Shown here: piece after piece, positions 8,225 to 63,090 of the stretch
How positions within the stretch are numbered: position 1 is the first letter of the stretch
How the letters are laid out: every line of letters starts with the position of its first letter
Assembly: GCA_951406725.2 (NCBI GenBank)
Contig: OX597841.1
Coordinates: 14,198,001 to 14,262,000 of the forward strand
Length of the DNA stretch: 64,000 nt
Reading direction: 5' to 3'
Origin: Octopus vulgaris
Taxonomy: Eukaryota
Made by a program: the position numbers and the translations under genes
Notes under the pieces: model-generated
What the model was told of the DNA's origin: nothing
Databases searched by the model: none
The model's input: the letters and a program-made list of their open reading frames with translations, nothing else

Positions 8225-8292
8225 GTATGGTCATAAGGTCATCGTGTTGCTACAAGACTTTTTGTTTTGTGTTTTTTTAAATTACTGTGCCC

Positions 8293-8337
<45 letters not shown>

Positions 8338-8403
8338 GGTCCCGGGTTGATTCGGGGTTAACCACAGTAAGTAAGGTACTCAATACATAGCAGAGTAAAA
8401 TTA

Positions 8404-8529
8404 ATTTATTATATAGAAGGAGCTTCTACAGGACTAGTACTGTTTCATTCAAGAGAAATCTTCAGGAAGCTTCCTGAAGATTTCTCTTGAATGAAACAGT
8501 ACTAGTCCTGTAGAAGCTCCTTCTATATA

Positions 8530-8535
<6 letters not shown>
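8404..8535. repeat. Perfect 132-bp palindrome (66-bp arms, no spacer)
   Basis: Centred on aagctt at 8467-8472. Arms are exact reverse complements; flanked by (TA)n. Confidence 0.95.
8468..8518 (+). ncRNA. Minimal type-I hammerhead ribozyme (mirror copy on minus strand at 8421-8471)
   Basis: agcttc-CTGAAGA-t ttc tctt gaa t-GAAA-cag tactagtc ctg-TA-gaagct. 6-bp stem I, CUGANGA/GAAA core, short stem II, stem III with palindromic loop, GUA cleavage triplet. Confidence 0.7.
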
Positions 8536-8559
<24 letters not shown>

Positions 8560-8564
<5 letters not shown>

Positions 8565-8731
8565 AAATTTAAAGGACTGACCACTAAAAGTGGACGGTCA
8601 ACATGCTAGACATAGACGTCAAATCGCTATTTTCCACAAAGTACATATTCTTTGTGGAAAATAGCGATTTGACGTCTATATCTAGCATGTTGACCGTCCA
8701 CTTTTAGTGGTCAGTCCTTTAAATTTTGTAT
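8560..8731. repeat. Foldback inverted repeat (82-bp arms, 8-nt spacer, 1 mismatch)
   Basis: atacaaaattt...ccacaaag / ctttgtgg...aaattttgtat; starts at a (TA)n tract. Confidence 0.93.
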
Positions 8732-9192
8732 GTAAAAATATTTTAATCTTCAGATTTTTTTAATATGCTGGGCCACTGGTTTTAATTGATTAATATCAAT
8801 TTCTACCCTTATTAAATTTTAAATTTATATATATATATATATATAAATAAATAAATAAACTTTTGTATCTCTGCTGTAAGGCTTCATTTCCATATGCCGT
8901 CAGCTTAATTCAATTCGTCCTTAGTCGAAAGACGCCTGTTGTTATGTCCTGTTAATATTTTTATTGTATTTATATTTGTGTAATATTTCCCGCTAGCCAT
9001 AACGGCAATTCTGAAAACTTTTGGGTGCGAATTTTACATAAGTAGAAGCTTTTTTTTAACAAATTTTACCCTGGAAATCACCTGTGTAAATTACACAGGT
9101 GTGCAAATTCCATGGGTTTTTACAGTAATTATTCCAGTTGTCTGTAGTCTAGTGTAGGCATGGACAGCCTGTTTCGAAGAAGGTTCATCTGG

Positions 9193-9408
9193 CGGGTTGC
9201 AGGTTGCCCACGGGTTGCAGGTTGCCCTCGGCTTGCAGGTTGCCCTTGGCTTGCAGGTTGCCCACGGCTTGGAGGTTGCCCTCGGCTTGCAGGTTGCCCA
9301 CGGGTTGCAGGTTGCCCATGGGTTGCATGTTGCCCTCGGCTTGCAGGTTGCCCTTGGCTTGCAGGTTGCCCTCAGCTTGCAGGTTGCCCTCGGGTTGCAG
9401 GTTGCCCG
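9193..9408. repeat. 18-bp minisatellite x12
   Basis: Unit ~(c/t)gg(c/g)ttgcaggttgccc(a/t); translates as RVAGCP repeats in the ORF track. Confidence 0.95.
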
Positions 9409-9548
9409 TGACTGGCTACGTGTGCTGTATGGGTGTCAGTGTTTTGTTATGTTGCAGTGTGATGTCAGTTTGTGCATTGTTGTGTGTGGTGCGGTATCGA
9501 TGCTGTCCTTATCTGATCCCTTCTCTTCTCTTCCGTATCCCCTTGCAG

Positions 9549-10480: not shown

Positions 10481-10686
10481 AGACATTGCATCTAAACAGT
10501 GTCATGTCTTCAAGACATCCACATCTTCACAGCACCACGTTATCACCAACTTTATATCTTCATATATCATCTAAACATTGTATACATGTGTTTATACATC
10601 TGTGTATGCTTGTGTGTATACACCTGTATTTGTGTATCTGTTTTTATATATAACTAACAAAGTGTCTATTTGTATCTTTTGAACAG

Positions 10687-11603
10687 AGGAATGGACAGCC
10701 GAAGAATGGGAGAAACTCCAGAAAGACTGTGCCACGTACGGCTTTTGGTTTGCCATCACTGACTACATCTACTCGTGTGAGGACTACACTTTTGTTAAGA
10801 TCTTGCCAAGAATATTTGAGAATCTCTTCTTAGATCCTCCCGAAAACATCTCTAACTTCTTGTCTCGAATACGGCGCAGGTTGAAACGAGGTGGTGTCGA
10901 TTGGATAAAGGAGACATTCTTGGAGCCGCAGAAGAATCTCGGCCCCCTCTGCGACAAGCTGGGCATCACCGTTGAACTGTTACAGAAGGGCGAGAGCCCG
11001 AATGTGCCAGCGTCGCAACTGTCGAAGGCTCTCGCCCTTGAATTGCTCTATTATAAGAAAAGGCATCCAACCATGAGCTATGCTGACCTCGCTGGTTGGA
11101 TCAAGTTGATTTTCAATTTCCCAACACTACCCGATCAGCGTGACCTCCACTTCCAACTGGAGGGCATCCATCGACTGAAGAACAAGCTGCGGGGCCACAA
11201 GACCGAAGTTGTTAAAATGCTGAAGGAGCCATTTGAACCTGTGTTCACCTCGTCCGACATCGATGTGGAGACCGACGGGGCGGCCACCACTGGCAGCTCC
11301 GACGATGCCACCGGCGGCGCGGCCAGCTGCAGCACCGCAGGGACTGGGTCTGACAGCAACCTCACCGTGCCGGCTACGACCAGGGAGGAGGAGGAGGAGG
11401 AAGAGGAGGAGGATTTAGAAGAAGAGGAAGACGCGGAGGAAGAGGAGGAGTTGGAAGAAGAAGAAGAGGAGGAGGAAGAGGAGGATTTCTTTGTTGAACG
11501 CAACCAGGATGGCAAGTGTCGGGTGTCGTCGTCTGACAACCCCCCTGAAGGGTCCTCGGACGACAGCTGCAGTGTCCCGACCTTGGAGAAGAAGAGAGCC
11601 GAG
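10687..11603 (+). CDS. Gene 1 coding exon C: helical folded region with HTH-like segment, then poly-Glu tract
   Basis: Acceptor tttgaacag|AG, donor GAG|gtaagt. Phase 1 in, 305 open codons EWTAEEWEKLQKDCATYGFWFAITDY...KKRAE, phase 0 out. Overlaps track ORF 10803..11633. Confidence 0.9.
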
Positions 11604-12106
11604 GTAAGTTCCTTATTCCTTGCTTTTGTATAAGTTGCACATTGTGAAGGTTGATGGCTTAGTGGTTAGGGGCGTTTAGTTCACAATCACAAGGTCATGA
11701 GTTCAATTCCTGGAAAGTCATTGTCTCCTTAGGCAAGACACTTTATTTCATGTTGCCCCAGTCCACTCAGCTGTCAAAAATCAGTTGTACCTGTCATTCA
11801 AAAAGGGCCCAGCTTTGTCACCTCTTGTGTCACACTGAATCTCCCTGAGAACCATGTTAAGGGTACACGTGTCTGTGGAGTACTCGACCACTTGCATGTT
11901 AACTTCATGAGCAGGCTGTTTGGTTAATCCAATCAACTGGAAGGACCTTAGAGAATCTTACTTGAAAATCAAGGAAGGGTTAGCAAGATGAAGGGCATCG
12001 AGCTGTAAAAAGGGGCCTCAATAATGTATTCTTCTAACCCAATGGTTCTCATCAAGGGTCCATATAAAATTTTCTTGTTAAAATTTATCTGCAGTAAATT
12101 GGTTGG

Positions 12107-12630: not shown

Positions 12631-13275
12631 GCCCACACAATACAGAATATTTTAACAATTGTCTTTTTATACAATTCCTAATAAAAATAAAATAGGGTTT
12701 TTTAAACATGGAATAGTTATGGGGGCCCACCTGAGTAAAACAGAAATCAAAGGGGTCCATAGATAAGAAGGGTGGGGCCGAGAAACTATGTTGTAACTCA
12801 TGGGAAACTGATTGTGAAAATGTACAAAGCACCATCCGAATCGTGGCCGATGCCAGTGCCACCTCGACTGGCTTCCGTGCCGGTGGCATGTAAAATGCAC
12901 CAATCTGACCGTGGCCGTTGCCAGCCTCGCCTGGCCCCTGTGCAGGTGGCACGTAAAAAGCACCCACTACACTCACGGAGTGGTTGGCGTTAGGAAGGGC
13001 ATCCAGCTGTAGAAACACCGCCAGATCAGACTGGAGCCTGGTGCAGCCTCCTGGCTTCCCAGATCCCCGGTCGAACCGTCCAACCCATGCTAGCATGGAG
13101 AACGGACGTTAAACGATGATGATGATGTATAAAAGCTTGTTGGGTGTGATTTTGAGGGAAGTTTGACTGCTATGTTTGAGCTGGTTGTTCAACCATGTTG
13201 AGGGATTTTCTCTATTATTCCATTGTTGTTGCATTTTATTAAAATTTGTGCTTTTTTTTTTTTTGCTTTTTTCAG

Positions 13276-16200
13276 AGTCCAAGGTCAGCAAAGGACACAA
13301 TGCCCCAAGATGACGAGAACACCAATATATCAGAGCCGTCAAAGACACGGTTTGACAAAGAGGATTCCGTCGATTCTGTCAAACTGCACGACAGCACAGC
13401 CTCTGAGTCTGACCACAAACCTGCTGGACATGTGAGAGCTGATAAACTTGCTGAAGACTCCAAGAGTAGCTGTGACACTGCTGCTTCTGAGACCACCCTG
13501 ACATCGCAGACCAGGAAGAGAAACCATTCCGAAACAGACACAGAGTCGAGCGAGGAGAAGCAGAAGGGTCCCACAAACCTGGATCCGGTCACAAAGAAAC
13601 TCTGTCCACAACAAACTGAAAATGCAAAGAGTGAGGCTCCAGCTGGCCTGAAGTCTGGAACTGATGCCAAAGAGGCTAAAAAACCAATAACTGACCAAGG
13701 AATCGACTCTCATTCAAAGCAAAGCGTTAAAAGTTCTTTGTTTGATGATGCCACTACTGCTGATTTGACGAAGGGATCTGTCGGAATTGGTGAGAAGGGG
13801 GAGAAGAAAGGTGAGGTTAAGGTTACAAGTGGGACAGCGGAGAGTCCTTTGTCATCAAAGGAGAAACCCCAAGAGAAAGGGAAGACGACCGAGGCAGTGA
13901 CGAAAGATACAAAGACGGCTGCCGGAGAATCAGATTCTGGGAAAACGGATAGAGTTAAGAAGGCGCCGGAAGTTGAAGGACGGAAGTCCAAGTCTGCCGA
14001 GAAGCTGCAAGAGGTCTGCGAGAAGTTGCGAGCAGCACGAGGAGGAGGAGGAGGAGGAAGTGGCAGTGATGTGGATCTGTCTGTAGGTCGTAAAGGAAAG
14101 AAGGACGAAGATGAAAAGGTTGTTCCGGATAAGAAAAAGGCTGAACCTGAGGCTGGTGCATCGAGTAAGAGGGAAGCAGATTGCTCCAAGGCATCGGAAC
14201 CATCCAAGGAACTTCCAGCCGATGACAGTGGAAAGAAGAGTCTGCAGAAAGCTGAACCCAAGCAGAAGAGCTCAGATCTGAAGGCGAAACCTGCTGACAA
14301 TGTTCCAGACTCCAAGAGCAAGGTAGAAAATTCTTCTGACCCTGTTAAACCATCTTTGAAGGCATCAACTGTTACTGCTGAGTCTAAGTCTGTTGAGAAC
14401 CAATCCAAAGAAGAGGGGAAAAAATCTTTGAGCAAGCCATGTGATGATAGCACAAGGACCTCTCAACTAAATCAAGGACCAACAACTCCCAAACAACCCC
14501 TTAAAGAGGACACAGAGAAGTCGTCAGATAAGGCAGTTTTAAAATCTGTTCCCGATAAGATTTCCAAGTCGGCCGATTCCAAATCTTCTGGCGATAGTTT
14601 GAAAGTTTCCATTCCGAAAGCGGATGCCTCAAAGTCTGGGAAGGACTCTTCAGCAAGCGGTCAGTCAACCGTGACTGGGAAATCAGAACCAAAGAAAGAA
14701 AGCAACAAGATGTCGGACGTCCAGACAGATTCTGCTGACAAGAAGAAGAATTTGTCCTCGAAAACTAAACTTGATACAGAAACAACCAAAGTCGAGTCTG
14801 TGAAGACAGAGAAACCAAAAGATTCTGTTCGTGGGGAGGGTACGGCAAAAGATGAGGTGGCTTCTAAACTGCCTGGAAAGGGGACAGGTGTAACGAAAGA
14901 AGAAGGATCGCGAGGAGTTAAGTCTACTGAAGAGGATCTGAAGTCGAAAGTAACGTCTGACCCTAAAGTTGTAGACAAAGCCAAGAATGACCAAACTGGT
15001 GCGAAGAAAATGTCAACCGAGCCCCAGAAGTTGAAGGATTCTGGCATTTCAAAAATGGGGAGCAGTTTGAAACCTGGTGCTGATAAACCTTCTGACAGCA
15101 AGGCTGAAGGAATTTTGGCCAAGGCTGACAGTTCAAAGGGCCTCTCTAAGGCATCTGAAAAGAAGAACAATGAATCTGGAGATCAGAGTCGTGGAAGTTC
15201 GAAAGAAGGAACCCCTCTGAAGCCTGTCAGTGGTGAGTCATCGTCCGTCGGAGCGGAAAAACCGTCTTCGGATCTGAAGAAAGAATCTGCTAAAAGTGAT
15301 GCTGCGACAAAGAAACCTGTGTCTGCTGAAGACGGAGAGAAGAAATCAGAGAAGACCAATGCTGTACCGGAAAGTTCTAAGACTCCTTTCTCTGTGAAAA
15401 GTAAGGAATCGACCAAAGATGTATCAAAGGCAGAGTTAAAGGAATCCAGTTCAGCATCTGTCTCTTCGAAAACTGCTGATGATGGTAGCACCGGCACAAA
15501 GAAACCTGTTGCAGAACAACCTACGGCGGGAGAAATATCATCGAAATCTAAGGAAGGGCCTTCGAAGTTGGCTTCAAGAGAAAGTGTTCTAGCAGAGGCT
15601 GGTTCCATGCAGGATAAAACACTGACAAAGCTGACTACAACGTTAATTAAAGAAAGCAGTCCTTCAGAGAAATCCATCATTAAGCCAACTGAAAGTGCAT
15701 CCAAGATCTCATCTGGGTCACAGAGTAAACCTTCGCCAGAGGCCCCCGCTAAATCTGCAGTGGAGGAGTCTCTGCCCAAATCCACTTCATTATCAAAGAA
15801 AGAATTATCAGAACCAAATCAAAAGCCTTCATCAGAAGCCCAAGCAAGTTCTTTGTCAAAGTCACCGGCCAAATCCTCGTCAGAGGCCTCAGCAAAGTCC
15901 TCGTTGAAGGTCCCAACTAAGACCTCGTTGGAGGCCCCAGCCAAGACCTCATCGGAAGCCCCAACCAAGACCTCGTCGGAGGCCCCAGCCAAGACCTCGT
16001 CGAAAGCCCCAGCCAAGACCTCGTCGGAGGCCCTAGCCAAGACCTCGTCGGAGGCCCCAGCCAAGACCTCTTCAGAGGCCCCAGCAAAGTCCTCGTCAAA
16101 AGTCCCTACCAAGCCCCTCTCAGAAGACTCAGCCAAGTCCCCTTCAGAAACCTCTGTCAAAAAATCCTCATCTGAGACCCCAGCCAAGTCATCATCAGAA

Positions 16201-16749
16201 ACCCCTGCCAAATCTTTGTCAGATGCCCCAACTAAGTCTTCGTCGGAGACCCCTAGTAAAACCTCGTCAGAAGCGAAGTCCTCATCAGAACCTCAGTCAA
16301 CAAACACACCACCAACGCAGACCAAACCTGCTGCGAACAGCAACAGCAGCAACAACAGCAGCACTGCCGCGGACCCTAACAAAACAGCTAAACCAGCAGA
16401 AGATAGCAGCAGCAAACAGAAAAAGGACGTCCATTTACCAAAGAGCCAATCAGGTGCCACAACAACAACAGCAGCGACCAAGGTCGGTGCCGCGCAGGAC
16501 ATCAAGAAAGAAGGCGACAACAAAGTTACAGTCATCAAAATGGCGTCGGCGACCTCTCACTCGAACGTGGACTGCTCCAGCGGCAAGAGTACTCCGAAGA
16601 GTGTCGTGTCGCACTCGGCCGAGGCTAAGCGAGACTCTTTGAAGTCGGCGGACACGAGTCGGAGCAAAACCACCTCTAGAGCAGTAGCCGAGGAGAGTCG
16701 ATCGGCAAAGCACGAGGGCCAAACCTCGGTTATCACGCCTACCAAAAAG
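13276..16749 (+). CDS. Gene 1 coding exon D: 3,474-bp exon encoding a K/S/E-rich disordered region
   Basis: Strong polypyrimidine acceptor ttttttcag|AGT, donor AAG|gtgaga. 1,158 open codons (track ORF 13246..16806); phase 0 in and out. Confidence 0.92.
15860..16290 (+). repeat. Coding 24-bp (8-aa) tandem repeat
   Basis: PAKTSSEA-type units inside gene 1 exon D. Confidence 0.9.
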
Positions 16750-16900
16750 GTGAGAGATTTTTGTGATGTTGTTGTTGGTGGTGGTGGTGGTGGTGGTGGT
16801 GTTTAACCCTGGGTCACATTGCTGGCTTTGTGCGTTAGTTATCAAAAGCCTTAGTCGTAAATTGTGGAGTTGCAGATGGTAGGGTGGTGGCAGCAGCAGC

Positions 16901-20339: not shown

Positions 20340-20456
20340 AATTAATTATATATACCTTAATTGGTATATATAAATATTTTAATCTTCGGATTCTTTTTTA
20401 ATATGCTAGACCACTGGTCTTAATTGATAAGTATCAATTTCTACCCTTAATTAATT

Positions 20457-20495
<39 letters not shown>

Positions 20496-43966: not shown

Positions 43967-44849
43967 GTTTAGCGTCCGCTTTCCATGCTAGCATGGGTTG
44001 GACGGTTCAACTGGGGTCTGGGAAGCCAGGAGGCTGCACAAGGCTCCAGTCTGATCTGGCAGTGTTTCTACAGCTGGATGCCCTTCCTAATGCCAACCAC
44101 TCCACGAGTGTAGTGGGTGCTTTTTACGTGCCACCGACACAGGTGCCAAGGGAGTCTGGCATCGGCCACGATCAGTTGGTGCTTTTAACGTGCCACCTCA
44201 CGGAAGCCAGTCGAGGCGGCGCTGGCATCAGCCACGTTCGGATGGTGCTTCAAAATGACTATCAATCTATATATTAGTGTGTGTGTGTGTGTTCCAAAGT
44301 AATCAAATAAATGTGGGGGAAAATAGTACTCGAATACAGGAGGTAGAGTAATATGCGTTATTATTATTAAAGCTGTGAAGAGATCACAAAAAATCTGCTA
44401 CTCAGAGTTTCATATTCCTGTTCGAAAAACAGGAATGTTTTTTGTGATATTTTTGTGATATTTTTGTGATGTTTTTGTGGTGTTTTTGCACCTTTGATAA
44501 TGATAAAGGATATATATTGTAGTTCAAGAAATACTGTCTAAATACAAGACGGGATGGTCACAGGTGGAACACATTTGATTATATCTCTTCAGGATCAGGA
44601 CTGACCGAGGGTTAAACAATAACAACAGCAAAAGCACAATGCCCCACACCCCCCACCTCTCTGGAGGTCACCACTTGGCCCCTCCCCATCTCAAGGGCCA
44701 TGTTTGCAATCAAGAGATCACAAGTTCACACCCCAGTTTGTCTGGTACCCCACACACTCAGGACATAGGGGTACCACCCTCCACTTCCACTCATGTTCTC
44801 ACATATTAGAGAATGTATGTTATCAGCTCCCCCAAACGGGGTTCCAATT

Positions 44850-62008: not shown

Positions 62009-63090
62009 AAGAAAGAGAGACATAGATGGATAGATAGACAAATAGATAGAGAGAGAGAGAGAGAGAGATGGATAGATAGATTAATAGATAGATAGATAGA
62101 TACATAGATAAACATAGATAGATAGATAGATAGATAAACATAGATAGATAGATAGATAGATAGATGGCACTTACATAGTGTACTTATCGGTTCAGATCAT
62201 CTGTGAACTAAACCCTTCATATCATATATATATATATATGTGTGTGTGTATGTATATATAATTGTTAAAGGGGGCAACAGACGTTAAGGCAAGGCAAACA
62301 TCTCAAGCCATATACATTATTATTATAATTGGAAAATAATTCAAAGTCTTACAGCTGTTTCTGGGATATCCCAGAGTACGGGATATTCCATCATCAGAGA
62401 CAAATAGGAAAAAAACAGGTTAAAAAATAGGAATGGTATATATTAATGAAATGATGACACAGAGGAGTAACGGAATAAGGAGATGAAGAGAGAGAAGAAA
62501 AAAGAATATATATATATACATACGCTATATATATATGGCAATAATGATGATGTTGATAAGGGTATATTAATTTATATCATTTGAAAAAGGGGGGGACAAC
62601 GGGGGATGAGGGTACAAGAACAATGATCATGGCGTTGGTGATGATGATGACAATATATATATATATGTGTGTGTATATATATGTATACTCTTTTACTCTT
62701 TTACTTGTTTCAGTCATTTGACTGTGGCCATGCTGGAGCACCGCCTTTTTTTAGTCGAGCAAATCGACCCCAGTTCTTATTCTTTGTAAGCCCAGTACTT
62801 ATTCTATCGGTCTCTTTTGCCGAACCGCTAAGTGACAGGGACGTAAAACACACCAGCATCGGTTGTCAAGCAATGCTAGGGGGACAAACACAGACACACA
62901 AACACACATATATATATATATACATATATACGACAGGCTTCTTTCAGTTTCTGTCTTCCAAATCCACTCACAAGTCATTGGCCGGCCCGGGGCTATAGCA
63001 GAAGACACTTGCCCAAGATGCCACGCAGTGGGACTGAACCCGGAACCATGTGGTTGGTTAGCAAGCTACTTACCACACAACCACTCCTGC
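60809..63090. mobile_element. SINE family A copies
   Basis: 60809-61275 (+) and 62686-63090 (-). Confidence 0.85.
62346..62401 (-). ncRNA. Minimal type-I hammerhead ribozyme (Penelope-like element type)
   Basis: Minus strand reads gtct-CTGATGA-tggaatatccc gtactct gggatatccca-GAAA-cagctg-TA-agac. 4-bp stem I, 10/11-bp stem II, palindromic stem III (acagctgt), GUA triplet. Confidence 0.85.

What the first reader, a model, noticed from the sequence alone, without database searches (positions are those of the whole stretch)
8404..8535. Hammerhead ribozyme locked inside a perfect palindrome in a host intron
Seen: a spacer-less 132-bp palindrome whose right arm spells a complete minimal type-I hammerhead (agcttc CTGAAGA...GAAA cag tactagtc ctg TA gaagct; predicted cut after 8512). 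The left arm therefore encodes the same ribozyme on the minus strand. It lies in the intron between gene 1 exons A and B, with one copy in sense orientation. Known: Penelope-like elements carry minimal hammerheads in their pLTRs and often form inverted termini. Inference: in the pre-mRNA the 66-bp perfect hairpin would sequester the ribozyme, neutralising a potentially harmful intronic self-cleaver. It could also act as a switch if ADAR editing or helicases open the duplex.
Basis: partly seen in the sequence, partly recalled or inferred. Interest (0 to 1): 0.8.

Follow-up and report, generated by a model that had tools for sequence, protein, structure and literature searches.

The report
Penelope retrotransposon head-to-head run-off insertion
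The hammerhead palindrome is one of at least 930 similar 200-base scraps of a Penelope-like retrotransposon in this genome, likely made when two DNA copies run off the capped start of the element's RNA and are joined head to head, so it is most likely transposon debris rather than a host switch, though its junctions likely record how these elements insert.

Summary
The palindrome (66-bp perfect arms), the hammerhead motif and the intron are real. They are not specific to this locus. The feature is part of a 201-bp insertion (8335-8535) between two (TA)n runs: the 5' end of a Hydra-type Penelope-like retrotransposon, present twice head to head, with a 69-nt tail on one arm only. The genome holds 309 loci with this exact centre, 930 short palindromes of the family and 7,909 exact hammerhead halves; parent copies with open RT-endonuclease frames exist. 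Arm ends pile up on the first base of stem I (48 of 100, none beyond), 29 nt below a TATA box, usually with an extra G (32 of 43), the known trace of a copied cap. Either arm can be the longer one, and each occurs alone. Best reading: two cDNAs, primed on opposite strands, run off the capped sense RNA and join through the self-complementary AGCT. A second hammerhead family and a neighbouring family with no hammerhead motif show the same architecture, so the hairpin needs no host-selected lock. A-to-G clusters in three probable RNA contigs are present, and in one they hit core adenosines, which would inactivate rather than release the ribozyme. Catalysis is untested.

The parts
8335..8535 (.). 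Whole mini-insertion (201 bp) of a Hydra-type Penelope-like element: two head-to-head copies of the element's 5' end
   Evidence: Shared extent of 15 of 15 fetched loci, flanks unrelated; 141/141 identical to the parent copy in L230
8335..8471 (-). Tailed arm, element positions +1 to +137; in the parent it continues into the ORF (first ATG at +183)
8335..8403 (-). 69-nt tail (+69 to +137), present on one arm only
   Evidence: Tail on exactly one arm in 49 of 50 short palindromes
8468..8535 (+). Tail-less arm, +1 to +68, ending just after AATAAA; sense to the host pre-mRNA
   Evidence: 28 of 46 tail-less arms end at +68, the rest at +60 to +72
8468..8471 (.). AGCT overlap of the two arms: 4-nt self-complementary microhomology; its A is the inferred transcription start (+1) of each arm
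   Evidence: 309 loci with this centre; arm ends pile up at +1
8468..8518 (+). Type I hammerhead motif, predicted cut between 8512 and 8513; U10.1-U11.1; palindromic ACTAGT in loop III
   Evidence: activity untested
8421..8471 (-). Mirror hammerhead motif, predicted cut between 8427 and 8426
8294..8334 (.). Left (TA)n target run
8536..8562 (.). Right (TA)n target run
8225..9548 (+). Host intron (GT..AG) that carries the insertion
   Evidence: Spliced joint in contigs of X7 and X8; joined exons stay in frame
8563..8826 (.). Neighbouring insertion of another repeat family with the same build (inverted arms, one-sided tail, (TA)n flanks) but no hammerhead motif; serves as an internal control
   Evidence: 2,065 candidates, 40 scored; variable centres in 24 loci; descriptor finds nothing there

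Best explanation
The palindrome is a by-product of insertion of a Hydra-type Penelope-like retrotransposon, likely formed when two cDNAs run off the capped 5' end of the element's sense RNA and are joined head to head. Steps: (1, shown) the 201 bp equal the parent's positions +1 to +137 and +1 to +68, set in (TA)n. (2, inferred) A TATA box at -29 in the upstream repeat starts a capped RNA at the first base of hammerhead stem I. (3, inferred from a published in vitro system and from solo arms) The RT-endonuclease nicks both strands of (TA)n and primes cDNA at two fixed internal sites, about +68 and +137 to +141, probably on one RNA. (4, inferred) With only 68 and about 140 nt to copy, both cDNAs often reach the cap and add a C. 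(5, inferred) Their 3' ends anneal through short self-complementary motifs, here AGCT, and fill-in gives the palindrome. Longer templates give the same geometry with arms up to about 3.4 kb. (6, predicted) Any transcript crossing the insert meets the antisense arm first, so the hammerhead is passively sequestered; the host splices the intron out.
For: Copy numbers. Parent with hammerhead, tail and RT plus GIY-YIG-type ORF, open frames of 713 aa in L230 and L231. Hydra motifs. 5' ends: 48 of 100 arms at +1, 0 of 100 upstream. Extra G where the parent has T: 32 of 43 arms next to ATAT (hand count; binomial against 0.25 p=1.5e-11) and 11 of 13 arms separated from their partner by untemplated bases. 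Untemplated 5' G is the accepted cap trace in L1 and SVA (PMC4859970, passages). TATAAAT at -29 is kept while -1 to -12 diverge between subfamilies. Two cDNAs: the tail-less arm reaches further 5' in 20 of 50, the tailed arm in 16, equal in 13; capped tail-less arms stand alone (L083, L084, L099) and so does a capped tailed arm (L081). The same centre occurs in at least three subfamily backgrounds. Two RT start sites bounding the tail, extension of both strands and a predicted dimer were reported for an anole Penelope (PMC11167929).
Against: No raw RNA 5'-end data were available, so the start site is inferred from DNA only. An extra C can also be terminal-transferase activity at any RNA end. 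In the common GGAGCTTCC-type junctions the G can be assigned to either arm. In family 2 the signal is weaker: 7 of 9 arms reaching its inferred +1 carry G, only 3 unambiguously, one locus runs 1-2 nt further, and no clear TATA box was seen (hand count). The junction sample is the first 50 of 930 loci, all on one contig. Clade placement rests on motifs, not on a tree; Pfam did not recognise the parent's RT or endonuclease. D. virilis Penelope was reported to have a TATA-less internal promoter (PMC2377424, passages), so the promoter type is not general.
Confidence: 0.8

Rival explanations
1. Single-cDNA fold-back: one tail-primed cDNA reaches the RNA 5' end, folds on itself and copies back to about +68.
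For: Both arms share private variants (L054, L055, L061, L063) and mixed-subfamily palindromes are rare (16 loci). A 2-bp hairpin with a 3-nt loop would explain one common junction. Self-priming was proposed in PMC3846280 (Discussion).
Against: Fold-back requires the tailed arm to be the longer one, yet the tail-less arm is longer in 20 of 36 unequal cases. Capped tail-less arms occur alone. Shared variants are equally expected from two cDNAs on one RNA.
Confidence: 0.1
2. Host-selected lock or switch: the palindrome was kept or made to silence an intronic ribozyme, and ADAR or helicases release it.
For: The copy is intronic with one arm in sense; the duplex abolishes the predicted fold; A-to-G clusters on family hairpins appear in three probable RNA contigs.
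Against: Hundreds of identical copies with unrelated flanks; zero divergence from the parent; same geometry without a hammerhead motif; the arm alone is predicted to misfold; edits fall on essential core adenosines in the one contig covering the core; metazoan minimal PLE hammerheads tested in vitro cleaved little or not at all as monomers (PMC4209133).
Confidence: 0.05
3. A self-replicating non-autonomous element (MITE-like or palindromic SINE master) that spreads as a fixed 201-bp unit.
For: All 40 scored loci are identical over 132 nt; 309 share the centre.
Against: Many junction variants; variable end of the tail-less arm; the same centre in different subfamilies, tracking both arms; asymmetric ends; the insert lacks the upstream TATA box.
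Confidence: 0.04
4. Assembly or long-read fold-back artefact.
For: No raw long reads could be laid; some palindromes show one-sided small deletions that may be consensus errors.
Against: One-sided tail, untemplated G, unique flanks on both sides, hundreds of loci; a contig of an independent DNA run (X2) spans a head-to-head centre of a diverged copy (8416-8505).
Confidence: 0.01

Closest known systems
Hydra-clade Penelope-like elements (PMC8557442; section 11, passages and supplement searches seen)
   Same: RW(K/R), DKT, CxCx5C linker, CxxC and CxH, no CCHH, C-terminal endonuclease, (TA)n target, hammerhead with U10.1-U11.1 as in Hydra-1_aJap, Hydra-1_cRog and Penelope-1 to -8_HM; inverted 5'-truncated copy and one-sided tail.
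   Different: This family's hammerhead string was not found in the held part of the supplement (0 hits, file cut when stored). The tandem unit is about 5.2 kb because of a long low-complexity 3' region. Short run-off palindromes, a cap trace and a start site at stem I were not in the parts read.
Poseidon element of the green anole, PAc (PMC11167929; parts 1-2 of 4 read)
   Same: Two RT start sites bounding the tail, AT-rich target, both strands cut and extended, predicted dimer, hammerhead not needed for insertion.
   Different: Different clade; tail about 30-40 nt against 69 nt here; the parts read give no account of how the two cDNAs are joined or of inverted products.
Adineta vaga Penelope inverted pLTRs (PMC3846280; passages and Discussion read)
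   Same: Head-to-head inverted repeats with palindromes at the junction, tail on one arm.
   Different: The authors favour self-priming on an antisense template and leave the question open; the junctions here point to a capped sense template and two cDNAs.
Minimal PLE hammerheads (PMC4209133; parts 1-2 of 4 read)
   Same: Type I motif in the pLTR, palindromic loop III suited to dimers; pairs on opposite strands about 100-700 bp apart already noted.
   Different: G10.1-C11.1 is replaced by U-U; stem III has 4 bp; spacer is zero.
L1 twin priming and retroviral strong-stop DNA (twin priming seen only as a cited title; strong-stop recalled)
   Same: Two primed cDNAs joined by microhomology; a short cDNA that runs off the capped 5' end.
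   Different: Here both cDNAs copy the same 5' segment, so the product is a palindrome; priming is by nicked target DNA, not tRNA.
Non-LTR retrozymes (10.64898/2026.07.22.740005; part 1 of 5 read)
   Same: Short non-coding hammerhead-bearing derivatives of PLE repeats.
   Different: Retrozymes are direct tandem repeats; this is a single inverted pair.

Membership tests
Type I hammerhead ribozyme | Core CUGANGA, GAAA and NUH triplet | tested here: met
   CUGAAGA, GAAA, GUA
Type I hammerhead ribozyme | Stems I and III flanking the core | tested here: met
   6-bp stem I and 4-bp stem III, pairing 0.7-1.0 in the 51-mer
Type I hammerhead ribozyme | Stem II opened by G10.1-C11.1 | tested here: not met
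   U-U, then 3 bp with pairing about 0.1. U-U occurs in natural hammerheads (PMC3088659, passages) and in listed Hydra-clade motifs
Type I hammerhead ribozyme | Variation confined to tolerant positions; covariation in stems | tested here: inconclusive
   Recurrent variants fall at N7, loop II and loop III; no compensatory pairs seen; the descriptor fixes the core, so this is partly circular
Type I hammerhead ribozyme | Match to an Rfam hammerhead model | tested here: not met
   No hammerhead hit at gathering score or E<=10
Type I hammerhead ribozyme | Site-specific self-cleavage | not testable with these tools
   Weak hint only: about 13 tailed arms start at +44 to +46, confounded by TA microhomology
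Hydra-clade Penelope-like element (parent) | Single ORF with RT (YRDD) and C-terminal GIY-YIG-type endonuclease | tested here: met
   713-aa open frames in L230 and L231, read by motif; homologues carry PF01541; Pfam on the protein itself gave no RT or GIY-YIG hit
Hydra-clade Penelope-like element (parent) | RWK, DKT, CxCx5C linker, CxxC and CxH, no CCHH | tested here: met
   RWR (conservative change), DKT, C567-C569-C575, C667-C670, C695-H697
Hydra-clade Penelope-like element (parent) | (TA)n target and hammerhead in the terminal repeat | tested here: met
Hydra-clade Penelope-like element (parent) | Length generally under 3 kb | tested here: not met
   Hammerheads of the tandem at G000:C1:68.81-68.82 Mb are 5.2-5.4 kb apart
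Hydra-clade Penelope-like element (parent) | Placement in the RT phylogeny | not tested
   No named reference set was available as stored sequence
PLE inverted insertion | 5'-truncated inverted copy, head to head, tail at one end | tested here: met
   49 of 50 short palindromes; long inverted inserts in L047-L055, L060, L061, L063-L065
MITE | Symmetric terminal inverted repeats, fixed unit, DNA-transposon parent | tested here: not met
   One-sided tail, variable centre, RT-encoding parent
Non-LTR retrozyme | Direct tandem repeats each with a hammerhead | tested here: not met
   Single inverted pair
Host-exapted intronic ribozyme (for example the conserved amniote intronic hammerheads, recalled) | Single locus, conserved across species, diverged from any mobile source | tested here: not met
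   141/141 identical to a parent copy; hundreds of identical loci. Presence at this locus in other species could not be resolved

The most novel reading that the evidence does not exclude
These palindromes are a genomic fossil record that settles how Penelope-like elements make their head-to-head inverted ends: bilateral target-primed reverse transcription from two internal sites on one capped sense RNA whose first nucleotide is the start of the hammerhead, with the two cDNA ends joined by microhomology. The short products are double strong-stop DNAs, a class of thousands of promoter-less perfect hairpins that seed introns with ADAR substrates, and the hammerhead would work as the 5'-terminal structure of the element's RNA.
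Probability: 0.55. Interest if true: 0.7.

Novelty: new variant of a known kind. Interest (0 to 1): 0.5.

Why it matters
The switch idea does not hold, but the family makes an open question testable. PMC3846280 attributes head-to-head Penelope palindromes to self-priming on an antisense template and calls for experiments; PMC8557442 calls the transposition cycle behind tandem and inverted structures undefined. Here at least 930 + 794 short junctions in one genome carry a cap trace on the sense 5' end and show that either arm can be the complete one. If confirmed, this links the two in vitro RT start sites of PMC11167929 to the inverted structures seen in genomes, maps the start site without RNA data, and explains a source of perfect intronic double-stranded RNA. 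It also warns annotators that such repeats look like MITEs or pre-miRNAs but are retrotransposon products.

Tried and rejected
Rfam: no hammerhead hit; only sub-threshold miRNA hairpin matches caused by the palindrome. Folding z-score of the 51-mer is -0.17, no support from stability. First guess of Neptune clade rejected after reading the Hydra diagnosis. The RT frames in L046, L047 and L049 were first taken as candidates for the parent; they are unrelated nested elements. Fossil test for ribozyme cleavage: only 32 palindromes have junctions in about +35 to +51, against 930 near +1, and none is the perfect +46/+46 join; about 13 tailed arms next to TATAT start at +44 to +46 against about 4 at the comparable TAG at +36 to +38 (hand count), which is suggestive but confounded. 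One RNA or two: 16 mixed-subfamily palindromes, but the point-mutation background and the matching denominator were not obtained, so inconclusive. Empty-site or polymorphism test: contigs break at (TA)n, nothing bridges the locus. No RNA holder on record was listed and no raw reads were offered, so start sites, cut ends and strand could not be read from RNA. My descriptor missed the family 2 hammerhead at first; it was found by eye. An apparent fixed 5' limit of long arms was dropped because the reference has a nested element at that point. Earlier findings: three look-ups returned nothing. Literature searches for a prior description of capped run-off palindromes found none; the library lacks most subscription papers, and the supplement of PMC8557442 was cut when stored.

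Full report
Observation. The palindrome at 8404-8535 is perfect, with 66-bp arms and no spacer. Each arm holds a type I hammerhead motif; a strict descriptor gives 2 hits in the window and 0 in 30 shuffles. Stem II has three pairs and opens with U10.1-U11.1, which has natural precedent (PMC3088659, passages) and is usual in the Hydra-clade motifs listed in the supplement of PMC8557442. Rfam reports no hammerhead. Contigs of two probable RNA runs from two studies splice 8225-9548 out, so the feature is intronic and the right arm is sense to the host gene.

It is a dispersed repeat. A search of the own genome gave 446 candidates; all 40 scored loci were 100% identical over 132 nt. In 15 of 15 fetched loci the shared unit is 201 bp, the palindrome plus a 69-nt tail on one side, set between (TA)n runs with unrelated flanks. 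Exact patterns count 309 loci with this centre, 930 short palindromes with any centre up to 30 nt and 7,909 hammerhead 3' halves. These are lower bounds. Contigs of an independent DNA run and of a run labelled as a second organism hold the family at high depth.

Parent. Non-palindromic copies (2,544 matches) often come as outward-facing pairs kilobases apart; fetched regions show inverted arms from 0.2 to about 3.4 kb. In L062 the hammerhead and tail run into an ORF, and L230 and L231 hold open frames of 713 aa from the ATG at +183. The protein has YRDD, RWR, DKT, a CxCx5C linker, CxxC and CxH and lacks CCHH, matching the Hydra diagnosis in PMC8557442 (section 11). Pfam did not recognise its domains and no tree was built, so the clade call rests on motifs. 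The window's tailed arm is 141/141 identical to L230: the insertion is young.

Where the arms end. Numbering from the first base of stem I (+1), I analysed the first 50 of the 930 loci, all on contig 1. 48 of 100 arms end exactly at +1 and none extends upstream, although the pattern allowed it. The parent has T at -1. Among 71 distinct places where an arm abuts ATAT, 43 reach +1, and the preceding base is G in 32, T in 6, A in 4, C in 1 (hand count); the other 28 start later or differ at +1 and were set aside. In palindromes where untemplated bases separate the arms it is G in 11 of 13. Untemplated 5' G is read as a copied cap in L1 and SVA (PMC4859970, passages; also PMC11702581, passages). 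TATAAAT lies at -29 and is kept across subfamilies while -1 to -12 diverge. I infer that +1 is a capped transcription start and that the template is the sense RNA. No RNA 5'-end data could test this.

One cDNA or two. The tail is on exactly one arm in 49 of 50 loci; the tail-less arm ends at +68 in 28 of 46, just after AATAAA. Fold-back of a tail-primed cDNA needs the tailed arm to be the longer, but the tail-less arm reaches further 5' in 20 loci, the tailed arm in 16, and they are equal in 13. Among 18 distinct loci fetched, capped tail-less arms stand alone in L083, L084 and L099 and a capped tailed arm in L081 (no partner within 300 bp). So each arm is primed separately. Arms share private variants and mixed-subfamily pairs are rare (16, no background control), which suggests one RNA or one source locus for both. 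This fits the anole element, where RT starts at two sites bounding the tail and both strands are cut and extended (PMC11167929, parts 1-2 of 4). Junctions favour self-complementary motifs (AGCT here, CTAG in loop III), and the window's centre recurs in at least three subfamily backgrounds, so it forms anew each time.

Generality and control. A second family (49% identical over the N-terminal 120 aa) has its own hammerhead and 794 short palindromes; of 15 fetched, 14 had the tail on one arm, tailed arm longer in 6, tail-less in 4, equal in 4. Its cap signal is weaker: 7 of 9 arms reaching the inferred +1 carry G, 3 unambiguously, and one locus runs further (hand count). The repeat right beside the finding (8563-8826) has the same build with variable centres and no hammerhead motif; its parent was not identified. 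The geometry therefore does not depend on a ribozyme.

The lock and switch. In the palindrome the hammerhead stems have negligible predicted pairing, and head-to-head geometry means the antisense arm is always transcribed first, so sequestration follows without selection. The arm may not need a lock: with its own 3' flank a competing hairpin over the cut site lowers stem I pairing to about 0.3 at 68 nt and 0.00 at 137 nt, and minimal metazoan PLE hammerheads cleaved little in vitro (PMC4209133, parts 1-2 of 4). Loose ends of single contigs in three probable RNA runs show A-to-G clusters on family hairpins: 5 of 7 A in 27 nt with no other change in X8, 4 of 6 in X10, 2 on the opposite strand in X7. 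In X8 they include A9, A13 and A14, so editing would inactivate the core. These are single contigs of unknown copies, the RNA label is a guess and no matched DNA exists. Templates ending at the cut site are rare among palindromes (32 loci in +35 to +51); a mild excess among solo arms is confounded by TA microhomology.

Comparison and novelty. Inverted 5'-truncated copies, one-sided tails, (TA)n targeting and opposite-strand hammerhead pairs are known (PMC8557442, passages; PMC4209133). Palindromes at the inverted junction were ascribed to self-priming on an antisense template, with the question left open (PMC3846280, Discussion). Seven searches found no description of capped run-off palindromes; subscription papers and the cut part of one supplement were not seen. 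The genome looks cephalopod from a recalled SINE resemblance, which was not tested.

Verdict. Observation confirmed; lock or switch reading not supported; the feature is a young insertion by-product of a known class. The junction statistics are a new variant that bears on an open mechanistic question. Interest 0.5.

Noticed in passing
window 8563-8826: Second, unrelated head-to-head repeat with a one-sided tail in the same (TA)n run, no hammerhead motif, 2,065 candidates genome-wide; parent unknown, possibly a hammerhead-less PLE such as Naiad (guess).
   Followed up: partly
window about 62330-62403, minus strand: Another hammerhead-like motif (CTGATGA, long stem II, GAAA, palindromic CAGCTG, TA) with a 4-bp stem I, followed by a short tail and (TA)n.
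   Followed up: no
window 20361-20459 and 44320-44411: Lone tail of the neighbouring family, and a decayed piece of family 2.
   Followed up: no
L212, L214 (family 2): Many copies with 727-aa open frames; its hammerhead has A-A at 10.1/11.1, a GCAA loop II and a palindromic stem III; 794 short palindromes.
   Followed up: partly
L062:3020-3220: A short palindromic insertion of the same family nested in the (TA)n of the parent's own 3' region.
   Followed up: partly
L046, L049, L047: APE-type LINE ORFs of 1,015 and 1,039 aa (L046, L049) and an RT frame of a different PLE (L047) lie between inverted arms of this family, probably nested insertions.
   Followed up: no
Parent ORF copies L182-L211: 9 of the 30 best matches share an open frame that stops at 506 aa near a C run: a spreading defective subfamily or a homopolymer assembly error.
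   Followed up: no
L119, L151, L152: Tail-less arms end in short A runs a few bases after AATAAA, as if copied from a short polyadenylated RNA or by slippage.
   Followed up: no
L018, L024, L069, L076, L123, L146: Recurrent small deletions on one arm of palindromes, possibly consensus errors from reading hairpins.
   Followed up: no
window 10683-11633 and 13243-16806, plus strand: Long open frames (316 and 1,187 aa, low complexity) downstream of the intron, probably exons of the host gene; the gene was not identified.
   Followed up: no
window 8876-8997 and 9006-9127: Further high-copy repeats in the same intron by contig depth.
   Followed up: no
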